Positions 33,701 through 36,135 of a stretch of DNA of 64,000 nt are shown in pieces (position 1 is the first letter of the stretch; each line of letters begins with the position of its first letter). The DNA lies in the NCBI GenBank assembly GCA_002633005.1, contig NMRA01000009.1, positions 1,571,858 to 1,635,857 of the forward strand. Direction: 5' to 3'. Below the pieces are notes generated by a model. It was given only the letters and a program-made list of their open reading frames with translations, made no database searches and was not told the origin of the DNA. A program made the translations under genes and the position numbers. The DNA is from Phoronis australis (lineage: Eukaryota > Animalia > Phoronida).

Positions 33701-36135
33701 AATGAGCATGACAAATAGGATTTTGAAAAATAGAGCCAATAAACATGTTAAAGACCCTAACACTGCTACATTTACTTACACAGTGGCAACTGGCCAAGAA
33801 ATTGGATTTTCTGAAGTGAAATAGTGAAGATACCAGACTGTAATAAGTTCAAACTGTTAACCTGAGAACCTACGGTATACATACAGAGACACAGCGAGAG
33901 CTGCTGGAATGCAGATATTGGATCATTTGGACAAGAGCTATTATGACCTTCAACCCTGTCACTGGGTTATGACAGATATGTTATGTGTTGTGATGTGAAT
34001 AGTTGGCTGTTATTTCTTTTTGTGACTGATGAAGATATATGCATTAAAATCTTAATGAAATCTTGTGTCTGGTTTGTAGGCACTCAATTTTCATTGAAAA
34101 AAGTATTAATCTTAATTGTGCAATACCTTTAGGTTGCCACAATACCAAAGTACTAGTTCGAACTTGTCAGTCAGAGCTTTTACGAGATGCTTAAAACATG
34201 TTCTTTTCAAACAACATTGCCAAGCTGAATAGTAGAGACACATGCCTGTCGGCCAATCCTGTCAGGTGCAGGCCATGTAGAGTCATCTTCTTTCATGATT
34301 TCAGAGTCGTCAATGATTCGCTTCAGTTCTTCTAGCACAGACTTGTGTGCAAAGCACTACAACAGAAGAAACCACTTAACAAGTGTTACTCCATAACCAG
34401 ACTACCAAGACAGACACTGAAACATCTCCATATACATTTGCCAAAAATCATTGTAATTTGAAATTAATCGATTGTCTTGGCAGTTGGACGTCCATTCAAT
34501 TATAATCAAAATGAAGATTGAATTTGGCTACCAATGGTTCTCTGACAATTCAGAACATGCTAAACTGTACAGCACTGAATGTAGATACCATCAGCTAGTA
34601 GACAAGGATTTTTTGCAAAGGCTTTTAACCCAAAAATCCGAAAATAACAACTAAGTTGGTTAACTCATTTACCTCTTTCCTGATCATTGTATCATTTTTG
34701 TAGTTGGAGTTATTGGCATATCGAAGTTTACCTGCAAAGAAATTACAACAGTAAAACCATAGCACAGTTATCACTGTTTGTATCACTATTAGTATACAAA
34801 ACATATTCAATACATATATATCTCTCAACCTTCATCTCAATTTGCCCACAATTTAGCTAATAACATAATGGGACTTGAAAATTAACTGGTTACTTTGCAA
34901 GCTGTGTTGAATTGCTAGGCATACATTGTCACAAGAGTATGGTCACCTACCCAAAGACATAAGAATTTCAATGGTTTAAAAGTCCCAGCTGAGAGATTTC
35001 CAGCAGACAATTGAAGAAGAGGATTTTCTCCTTAAATAACAACAATTTTCTGCAAATTAATTACCACCACAATTTGAATTCATTAACTGGCCTGAGATTG
35101 TACCTCAAAATGAGGCATTGCAGATTCAGCAAAAGGAGCTAGCCACTTTAGCGAGAGCAATAATAGTAAATTTCAGCAGCTCATAACTTTACAGGAGGCC
35201 GCATCGCATGCAAGTAAAACTACGTATCAGTGTTAACTTGCAATCACTTTTGTAGCAGTGATTTGAGAACCAGTTGCTCCCACAGAATAACGGGCGTTAT
35301 TCAGTGGGAGTACCGTATCTGGTTCTCAAATCATTTTTAATCAGGTGTTGTAGATGTGCTTCCGGTGAATTATATGAGCCTCTGTTAGCTACTCGCTAAC
35401 GGGCAATTGCCTATCAGCTGAATGATTAGCACAATAGCACGTTTGCCAGTTTTATGGGGGTCGCGGGTTCGATCCCCTGGTCGGGTAATCTCGGCTATTA
35501 CTACAAATGGCGTAGTCGGCAAACGGATGATGTACCGATGAAGCACTGCCAACTAGTACCCACGGACCTCGGGACGGCGCGCGTGGAAGGTTCCAGGAGT
35601 CAAGGACCTGTATGAGAGACTACCTTGTGTTCACCTGTGTTGTGGTGGTAAAAGTACCAAGGGACGTTGATGACCTGTATGCGAGACATCCTGGTGTTCC
35701 CCTTCCTGGTCGCGTGCCCGTTCCATAGGAAAGGGGGGAATGTTGTAGATGTGCTTCCGGTGAATTATATGAGCCTCTGTTAGCTACTCGCTAACGGGCA
35801 ATTGCCTATTAGCTGAATGGTTAGCACGCTTGCCGGTTTTATGGGGGTCGCGGGTTCGATCCCCGGGTCGGGTAATCTCGGCTATTACTACACAGGAATC
35901 AATCTCTGACTATGCGACCGGTTACCAATACAGTCAATACCAGTTTGCAGCCGGGCAAAGAAACAATGAGGTCTTTTTAAACAAGATCAAAATGAAGAAA
36001 CCCCACATGTAAAAATATTTAAGCTATTATGTAAGACTTACCATCAGGCCTAAACTCAAATTCCAAAAACTCGTGGCCAAATTTGCCCTTGTGACCAATG
36101 TAATAACGAAGATAGAAATCACAAGAGGCCGCCAT
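30797..36135 (-). CDS. MAGOH: Protein mago nashi (exon junction complex core), 148 aa; exons 36135-36042, 34731-34673, 34356-34246, 32554-32472, 30896-30797
   Basis: [148 protein letters not shown]. Intron 3 has a GC donor. Confidence 0.98.
31922..32032. repeat. 17-bp tandem repeat, ~6.5 copies
   Basis: Unit ACACTAGTTGTATGACT with variants. Confidence 0.9.
32609..33885. repeat. ~640-bp near-identical tandem duplication (32609-33253 / 33255-33885) separated by one N; probable haplotype overlap
   Basis: Both copies run GAATGAACTAGAGC...CGGTATACATACA and differ by SNPs and one ~14-bp indel. Confidence 0.85.
35346..35892 (+). mobile_element. Complete TRIM (non-autonomous LTR retrotransposon) with tRNA-like sequence in both LTRs, Helenus-like
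   Basis: LTR1 35346-35505 and LTR2 35741-35892 (TGTTGTAG...TACTACA); PBS TGGCGTAGTCGGCA 35508-35521 (complement of tRNA-Ser 3' end); PPT AGGAAAGGGGGGAA 35727-35740; TSD CAGG on both sides; A box TAGCTGAATGG and B box GGTTCGATCCC in the LTR. Confidence 0.9.

What the first reader, a model, noticed from the sequence alone, without database searches (positions are those of the whole stretch)
35346..35892. Intact miniature LTR retrotransposon whose LTRs embed a tRNA-like Pol III promoter
Seen: 160/152-bp near-identical LTRs, 14-nt tRNA-Ser PBS, PPT, CAGG 4-bp TSD and a 235-bp non-coding interior. Each LTR has a tRNA-like stretch (LTR2 A box 35810-35820, B box 35853-35863, T-arm CGGGTTCGATCCCCG) with a degenerate anticodon arm, preceded by hairpin GTTAGC-TACTC-GCTAAC and palindrome GGCAATTGCC. 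Known: Cassandra TRIMs carry 5S sequence, and as I recall Helenus TRIMs carry tRNA-like LTRs with 4-bp TSDs in animals. Inference: a Pol III-driven, SINE-like LTR parasite mobilised by a tRNA-Ser-primed Gypsy, probably an uncatalogued family. It lies antisense in MAGOH intron 1, about 240 bp from the start codon.
Basis: partly seen in the sequence, partly recalled or inferred. Interest (0 to 1): 0.8.

Follow-up and report, generated by a model that had tools for sequence, protein, structure and literature searches.

The report
New Helenus-type mini-retrotransposon in MAGOH intron
This is one copy of a repeated, gene-less jumping element whose end repeats carry tRNA-type promoter motifs, so it is likely copied by RNA polymerase III and likely moved by another element's enzymes; that design (Helenus) was published in 2024, and this copy is spliced out of its host gene and has a damaged front promoter.

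Summary
Real element, known kind. 35346-35892 is a TRIM: LTRs of 160 and 152 bp, 235-bp non-coding interior, 14-nt PBS for tRNA-Ser(UCN), PPT, CAGG target duplication. A same-species assembly (B1) holds 12 or more full-length copies; all 10 fetched have a 4-bp TSD, each different. A and B boxes sit at tRNA spacing (2 of 50,000 shuffles) and are intact in 17 of 18 LTRs of the nine other copies. This fits the published definition of animal Helenus (TRIMp3, Kojima 2024). I found no matching family in that paper's supplement; Repbase and Dfam could not be checked. Corrections: this copy is not intact where it matters, since its 5' LTR A box has two substitutions and an adjacent 8-nt duplication; Rfam and ARAGORN call no tRNA; Pol III transcription and the Gypsy helper are not shown. 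MAGOH intron 1 is spliced cleanly across it. The one fresh lead is the hairpin-palindrome just before the A box. By eye it recurs in fish, bivalve and nemertean Helenus, and the paper's text does not mention it. An earlier scan note saw it in a mussel Helenus, and the scan has met Helenus-type elements in other genomes.

The parts
35342..35345 (.). left target-site duplication CAGG
35346..35505 (+). 5' LTR, 160 bp, TG...CA
35384..35411 (+). 5' LTR hairpin (two 6-nt arms) and 10-nt palindrome upstream of the A box
35415..35434 (+). damaged A box of the 5' LTR (35415 T>C, 35425 G>A) followed by an 8-nt duplication; of the 10 copies compared only this locus has these changes
35450..35453 (+). T4 run in the 5' LTR (a weak Pol III terminator candidate that a full-length transcript would have to pass)
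35466..35476 (+). B box of the 5' LTR, intact
35508..35521 (+). primer-binding site, 14 nt complementary to the 3' end of tRNA-Ser (AGA/CGA/TGA)
35506..35740 (+). non-coding interior, 235 bp, with two 32-nt imperfect direct repeats (35605-35636, 35672-35703); longest ATG-started ORF in the element 53 aa
35727..35740 (+). polypurine tract, 14 purines abutting the 3' LTR
35741..35892 (+). 3' LTR, 152 bp; 100% identical to several LTRs elsewhere in B1
35779..35806 (+). hairpin (arms 35779-35784, 35790-35795) and palindrome (35797-35806); arm 2 is also complementary to the start of the A box
35810..35820 (+). A box of the 3' LTR, full consensus
35837..35840 (+). T4 run in the 3' LTR, directly after a predicted long stem
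35853..35863 (+). B box within a 4-bp T-arm (35851-35865)
35893..35896 (.). right target-site duplication CAGG
34732..36041 (-). host MAGOH intron 1 (1310 nt, GT-AG), spliced out whole with the element in it

Best explanation
It is a copy of a multi-copy, non-coding miniature LTR retrotransposon of the Helenus (TRIMp3) design, which likely uses the A and B boxes in its 5' LTR as an internal RNA polymerase III promoter and is likely reverse-transcribed and integrated in trans by an autonomous, tRNA-Ser-primed Gypsy element. Shown: LTR-PBS-interior-PPT-LTR anatomy, independent insertions with 4-bp TSDs, identity of the primer tRNA, A/B boxes at tRNA spacing in most copies, recent activity. Inferred: Pol III starts just upstream of the A box, reads through the T4 in the 5' LTR, and ends in the 3' LTR, giving a short R region; a host tRNA-Ser primes minus-strand synthesis, the PPT primes plus-strand synthesis, and a borrowed integrase makes the 4-bp duplication. 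The copy in MAGOH intron 1 has lost its 5' A box, so it is probably no longer a template, and it is removed with the intron.
For: 12 or more full-length matches at 95-100% on 9 contigs of B1. All 10 copies fetched have a 4-bp TSD, ten different ones, and none extends to 5 bp; flanks are unrelated apart from one 22-nt match. LTR pairs are identical in 2 of the 9 other copies and differ at 1-4 positions in the rest. PBS matches tRNA-Ser(UCN) over 14 nt. A+B boxes: 2 of 50,000 shuffles; intact in 17 of 18 LTRs of the nine other copies. No TATA-like or AATAAA/ATTAAA motif on the sense strand. The commonest LTR variant in DNA contigs (35852 G>T, 58% and 51% of depth in X1 and X2) breaks a T-stem pair but spares the B box, and 35861 C>T falls on a free B-box position, as expected if the motif rather than the tRNA fold is kept. 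All 27 of the 30 listed phage matches that overlap the B-box side and carry an annotation or none are weak (E 0.2-8), but 23 of the 30 rows are annotated as tRNA. Kojima 2024 defines Helenus by these features, reports 4-bp TSDs for animal families, and links their PBSs only to Gypsy.
Against: No direct sign of Pol III transcription: in three RNA-seq runs (18-19% of each read) reads cover the element on both strands, about two thirds of all laid reads run on into unlike sequence, and no start or end pile-up lies in the element; such libraries may simply miss it. The only T4 lies between the A and B boxes of both LTRs, so it could stop Pol III in the 5' LTR. No Rfam tRNA or ARAGORN call. Box conservation is not shown to exceed the rest of the LTR: only 4 of 152 positions vary at 8% or more, and the fetched copies were picked for likeness to the query. 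No helper element was found: the decayed Gypsy in the window has no such PBS and 0 of 120 viral-contig loci with the PBS motif matched its RT. Kojima also notes that Pol III activity of Helenus is not validated.
Confidence: 0.75

Rival explanations
1. An ordinary TRIM with a tRNA- or SINE-derived relic in its LTR: it is copied from Pol II transcripts (its own LTR or read-through from host genes) and the A/B boxes are passengers.
For: T4 inside the would-be transcription unit. RNA reads on both strands joined to foreign flanks. No tRNA-model hit. Family too young for a selection test.
Against: Both boxes fit the consensus while the acceptor and anticodon arms have decayed. No Pol II TATA or poly(A) signal. 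The same boxes are kept across the published families.
Confidence: 0.2
2. A retrozyme-like element whose unit RNA is cut out by a self-cleaving ribozyme in the LTR rather than ended by polymerase termination.
For: The LTR folds better than shuffles (z -2.6). An earlier scan note (e1-10588765, unchecked) proposed a twister ribozyme in another tRNA-like mini-LTR element.
Against: No ribozyme family among the Rfam matches at E<=10 over the element or the LTR alone.
Confidence: 0.03
3. Two tRNA-derived SINE copies flanking a spacer, or a local duplication, that only mimic an LTR element.
For: A/B boxes are the hallmark of tRNA-derived SINE heads.
Against: The same 538-547-bp unit with TG...CA ends, PBS, PPT and exact 4-bp TSDs at 10 of 10 loci, and no poly(A) or simple-repeat tail.
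Confidence: 0.01

Closest known systems
Helenus (TRIMp3), animal families; Kojima 2024, PMC10886601 (read: main text parts 1-5 of 6, a term search, supplement parts 1, 5, 6, 7, 10, 11 of 11)
   Same: TRIM under 1 kb, tRNA-like stretch in both LTRs with box A TRGCY...YGG and box B GGTTC, PBS for a tRNA 3' end, PPT, 4-bp TSD, degenerate tRNA fold. Sizes (LTR 152, interior 234) are close to the tRNA-Ser-primed mussel families (LTR 141-156, interior 226-268).
   Different: PBS is the Ser(UCN) type beginning TGGCGTAGTC; the listed Ser-primed families begin TGGCGCTGC or TGGCGACGA, and this PBS motif has 0 hits in the supplement (line breaks could hide a hit). No listed family has these LTR ends or lengths. 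A T4 lies between the boxes, whereas many listed LTRs have their T-run at the A-box start or after the B box (by eye).
Helenus-2_PiNo and Helenus-3_PiNo (pen shell Pinna nobilis), same paper
   Same: By eye only: similar hairpin arms before a short palindrome, similar sequence after the A box and before the B box, similar start of the interior, and internal direct repeats.
   Different: Shorter (LTR 121-122, interior 178-182); PBS assigned to tRNA-Glu in the paper; no computed alignment was made.
Cassandra TRIM (PMC7215508, passages; also as summarised in PMC10886601) and Ajax
   Same: Non-autonomous LTR element with a small-RNA-derived Pol III promoter in each LTR; Cassandra RNA starts in the 5' LTR and ends in the 3' LTR with an 18-nt repeat.
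   Different: 5S-derived (A/IE/C boxes), not tRNA-derived; Ajax makes 5-bp TSDs; Cassandra is a plant element.

Membership tests
TRIM | two LTRs with TG...CA ends, under 1 kb, no coding capacity | tested here: met
   547 bp, LTRs 160/152, longest ATG ORF 53 aa
TRIM | PBS and PPT at the ends of the interior | tested here: met
   14-nt tRNA-Ser PBS, 14-purine PPT
TRIM | dispersed copies with different TSDs | tested here: met
   12 or more copies in B1; 10 of 10 fetched have distinct TSDs
Helenus (animal) | box A with TRGCY and YGG, box B with GGTTC in the LTR | tested here: met
   LTR2 and 17 of 18 LTRs of other copies; not met in LTR1 of this copy
Helenus (animal) | LTR stretch detectably similar to tRNA or SINE2 (Censor against Repbase, tRNAscan-SE in the paper) | tested here: inconclusive
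ARAGORN and Rfam give no tRNA call; weak blastn matches fall mostly on annotated tRNAs, 23 of 30 rows, E 0.2-8; box spacing is beyond chance
Helenus (animal) | 4-bp TSD | tested here: met
   10 of 10, none 5 bp
Helenus (animal) | PBS shared with an autonomous Gypsy element of the host | tested here: inconclusive
   No second PBS match in the window; whole genome not available; 0 of 120 viral loci with the motif matched an RT query
TRIMp3 | transcription by RNA polymerase III from the LTR | not testable with these tools
   Fragmented RNA-seq shows no start or end pile-up; needs ChIP or end mapping
an already named Helenus family | sequence match to a published consensus | tested here: not met
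   0 hits for four family-specific motifs in the supplement; only the generic B-box motif hits, 8 times. Repbase and Dfam not searchable
Retrozyme | self-cleaving ribozyme in the repeat | tested here: not met
   No ribozyme family at E<=10; an undescribed ribozyme is not excluded

The most novel reading that the evidence does not exclude
The module arm1 - arm2 - palindrome - A box is an ancient, functional RNA switch shared by fish, coelacanth, bivalve and nemertean Helenus and by this family. Arm 2 can pair either with arm 1 (present only when the polymerase runs through the 3' LTR) or with the start of the A box. It lets one LTR sequence act as Pol III start at the 5' end and as hairpin-assisted terminator at the 3' end. 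It would also mean that these animal Helenus descend from one ancestor rather than from repeated SINE insertions, as the paper proposed.
Probability: 0.25. Interest if true: 0.55.

Novelty: new member of a known kind. Interest (0 to 1): 0.3.

Why it matters
As it stands, it adds one recently active family, with a primer type not listed before, to a group described in 2024, and possibly a new host lineage (a lophotrochozoan by its best WDR83 matches; phylum not determined). It has no visible effect on MAGOH splicing. Its value is as a test case: no Helenus has been shown to be a Pol III transcript, and how one LTR can both start and stop Pol III is open. This family is young, has near-identical copies, a single T4 and a natural A-box mutant, which makes a direct assay simple. 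If the upstream hairpin module is homologous across phyla, it changes the proposed origin of animal Helenus.

Tried and rejected
The LTR query on B1 gave 12 or more hits at 99-100%, five at places not in the full-length list, but no flanking sequence came back; solo LTRs are therefore not shown. Summed contig depth in X1 is about 12,000-27,000 over the interior and up to 230,000 over the LTR against 46-60 on the flanks; the tool says this is no copy number, so I take it only as 'abundant, LTR in excess'. Empty-site allele: none seen; B1 carries the insertion with 3 flank and 2 LTR differences from the window, X1 contigs show no joint skipping it, and no other assembly of the species or genus came up; absence is not shown. 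Relatives in other species: only ~30-nt B-box matches in another phylum, two 26-27-nt vertebrate matches for the interior, nothing for the hairpin-to-B-box stretch. No listed run holding the stretch is on record as RNA; three RNA runs of the same species label were laid instead. Host phylum: two NDUFB7 searches found nothing; WDR83 gave molluscs, nemerteans and an annelid at 70-78% without resolving further. Terminator gating: a stem directly before the U4 forms in the 3' LTR context (P 0.99, -32.7 kcal/mol; 0 of 400 shuffles match both values, 5 match the energy, 2 the pairing), but P drops to 0.36 with 250 nt of upstream RNA, and a weaker stem also forms in the 5' context (P 0.37-0.83 by start site, 0.82-0.83 at -16 to -18), so the contrast is not clean. 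Covariation of the hairpin across published families was judged by eye only; no alignment was computed. Supplement parts 2-4, 8, 9 and main-text part 6 of PMC10886601 were not read, and PMC13570524 (3 mentions of Helenus) was seen only in a listing.

Full report
Observation. The element is in the sequence as described. LTR1 (35346-35505) and LTR2 (35741-35892) begin TG and end CA, differ by 5 substitutions and one 8-nt indel, and enclose 235 bp; CAGG flanks both ends. No other copy lies in the window. The interior has no ATG-started ORF over 53 aa, two 32-nt imperfect repeats and a 14-purine tract abutting LTR2. To identify the primer I scanned metagenome contigs for tRNA 3' ends complementary to 35508-35521: 115 loci were found, 60 were given to ARAGORN, 54 of these carry tRNA-Ser (AGA, CGA or TGA) and 6 carry no call; complementarity runs 14 nt including CCA.

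It is a mobile family. The genome index found one assembly of the same species (B1, invertebrate, chromosome level) with 12 or more full-length matches at 95-100% on 9 contigs. All 10 fetched copies, one of them this locus, have an exact 4-bp TSD, ten different ones, none extending to 5 bp. Two of the nine other copies have identical LTRs and the rest differ at 1-4 positions, so the family moved recently; these copies were chosen for likeness to the query and over-represent young ones. The MAGOH copy is the most diverged of the ten (9 substitutions and 9 gap columns against the majority, others 1-6 substitutions). B1 carries the same insertion with 3 flank and 2 LTR differences from the window, so it is present on at least two haplotypes or assemblies; no empty allele was seen.

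The tRNA-like stretch. LTR2 has a full A-box consensus at 35810-35820 and a B box at 35853-35863, 43 nt apart. In 50,000 dinucleotide shuffles an A box appeared 1,566 times, a B box 113 times and a correctly spaced pair twice; the rest of the window has none (the box consensus is recalled and agrees with the motifs given in PMC10886601). The pair is intact in 17 of 18 LTRs of the other nine copies. In this copy the 5' LTR A box is broken at its first T and last G and followed by an 8-nt duplication, which matters because the 5' LTR is the one that would drive a full-length RNA. The stretch is not a tRNA: ARAGORN finds nothing, Rfam gives no tRNA-family hit at E<=10 on 1.6 kb or on LTR2 alone, only a tmRNA T-arm fragment at E 1.3, and it folds no better than shuffles (z 0.0-0.4). 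Weak blastn matches to phage records fall on annotated tRNAs in 23 of 30 listed rows, at E 0.2-8. In DNA contigs of two runs of one sample only 4 of 152 LTR positions vary at 8% or more; the commonest breaks a T-stem pair and none hits a fixed box position. That fits a kept promoter motif but has little power.

Host context. Exon searches place the element antisense in MAGOH intron 1 (34732-36041), 149 nt from the donor and 243 nt from the ATG, with WDR83 head-to-head about 310 bp beyond. Three RNA-seq runs show 84, 75 and 134 reads across the 1310-nt intron and no depth in the unique intron bins on either side of the element, so there is no sign of exonisation or intron retention. Reads on the element lie on both strands, loose ends at both LTR termini are foreign sequence, and no start or end pile-up falls inside it. 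They are best read as other copies embedded in host transcripts and say nothing for or against Pol III. The named WDR83 matches are led by bivalve, nemertean, gastropod and annelid proteins at 70-78% over one 46-residue exon; the host is likely a lophotrochozoan, phylum not determined.

How it most likely works. Shown: anatomy, primer, TSD length, dispersal, recent activity, promoter motifs. Inferred from established LTR-retrotransposon biology and from PMC10886601: TFIIIC binds the A and B boxes of the 5' LTR, Pol III starts just upstream, the RNA spans PBS and PPT and ends in the 3' LTR, and a Gypsy-type RT, RNase H and integrase copy it in trans. No helper was found. The decayed Gypsy at 19807-22451 has RT and RNase H domains but the PBS occurs only once in the window, and none of 120 viral-contig loci with the PBS motif matched that RT. 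One difficulty is that the only T4 on the sense strand lies between the boxes of each LTR. Passages of PMC9278858 report that yeast Pol III barely stops at T4 unless a hairpin lies within about 7 nt, and passages of PMC13385618 report 52% termination at T4 for human Pol III, 73% with an adjacent hairpin. In the 3' LTR context a long stem ends right at the U4 (P 0.99, -32.7 kcal/mol; 0 of 400 shuffles reach both values), using upstream sequence that a transcript starting in the 5' LTR lacks. Against this, the pairing falls to 0.36 when 250 nt of upstream RNA are folded together, and the 5' context also forms a weaker stem there (P up to 0.83, about -13 kcal/mol). The gating idea is therefore possible but not established.

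The upstream module. Folding a growing RNA shows arm 1 paired with arm 2 (P 0.94-1.0) until the A box is transcribed, then arm 2 switching to the A-box start (P 0.87-0.98). Reading the published consensus LTRs by eye, the same order (hairpin with TAGC/GCTA-type arms, short palindrome, T-run, A box) appears in zebrafish LTR-11_DR and its relatives, coelacanth LTR1_LCh, bivalve Helenus-1_CGi, -3_SaGl, -2_MiYe, -4_ArIr, -1_BaPl, -2_MoPh, -2_PiNo and -3_PiNo, and nemertean Helenus-1_LiLo and -1_NGe. It is absent from others, such as Helenus-2_CGi, the TeGr families and the brachiopod LAn families, which keep a tRNA-like acceptor. I did not count these or align them. The paper's main text has no occurrence of 'hairpin' or 'palindrom'; searches for TRIMp3, for Helenus with TRIM and tRNA, for Cassandra terminators and for lophotrochozoan TRIMs listed no paper whose title or abstract start addresses it.

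Comparison and verdict. Kojima 2024 defines Helenus as TRIMs with a tRNA-derived LTR stretch, box A TRGCY...YGG and box B GGTTC, PBS and PPT, with 4-bp TSDs in animals, found in six animal phyla. This element meets every feature I could test except a model-level tRNA hit, which is inconclusive. It matches no listed family by motif, length or PBS; the nearest by eye are the two Pinna families and, by size and primer class, the Ser-primed mussel families. Repbase and Dfam could not be searched, so it may already be named there. It works like Helenus, and by the paper's descriptive definition it is one. Verdict: new member of a known kind, interest 0.3. The bolder reading, an old hairpin switch that unites a large part of animal Helenus and sets the ends of the RNA, has about a one in four chance.

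Noticed in passing
window 35254-35338: A 75-bp foldback (15-bp perfect outer arms, 16-bp inner arms) ends about 12 bp left of the TRIM. Its contig depth in X1 is over 1,000 against 60 on the flank, so it is likely a separate MITE-like repeat.
   Followed up: partly
window 19261-19489: A 229-bp solo LTR (TGTAAT...ATTACA) with a 5-bp TSD CTATC, unrelated to the TRIM, upstream of the pol region of the decayed Gypsy.
   Followed up: partly
window 19807-22451 (+): Decayed Gypsy-type pol in three overlapping frames; RT and RNase H Pfam hits. No tRNA-Ser PBS near it.
   Followed up: partly
window 36135 (-) and 36444 (+): MAGOH and WDR83 are head-to-head with about 310 bp between start codons; the TRIM lies within 550 bp of both.
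   Followed up: partly
runs X2 and X6 laid on window 35346-35892: Signs of related subfamilies: an X2 contig with LTR, 436 other letters, LTR, and X6 reads whose interior departs after 35547.
   Followed up: no
window 17472-17969 and 18257-18761; 32605-33253 and 33251-33885: Near-identical adjacent duplications (95-96%); the first pair straddles an N and may be an assembly artefact, the second lies in a MAGOH intron.
   Followed up: no
window 12712-13543: Tandem array with a 27/54-bp period giving long spurious ORFs.
   Followed up: no
window 1600-1938 (+), 10795-11124 (-), 50070-63358 (-): Exons of NDUFB7, a methyltransferase and a calpain (Pfam).
   Followed up: no
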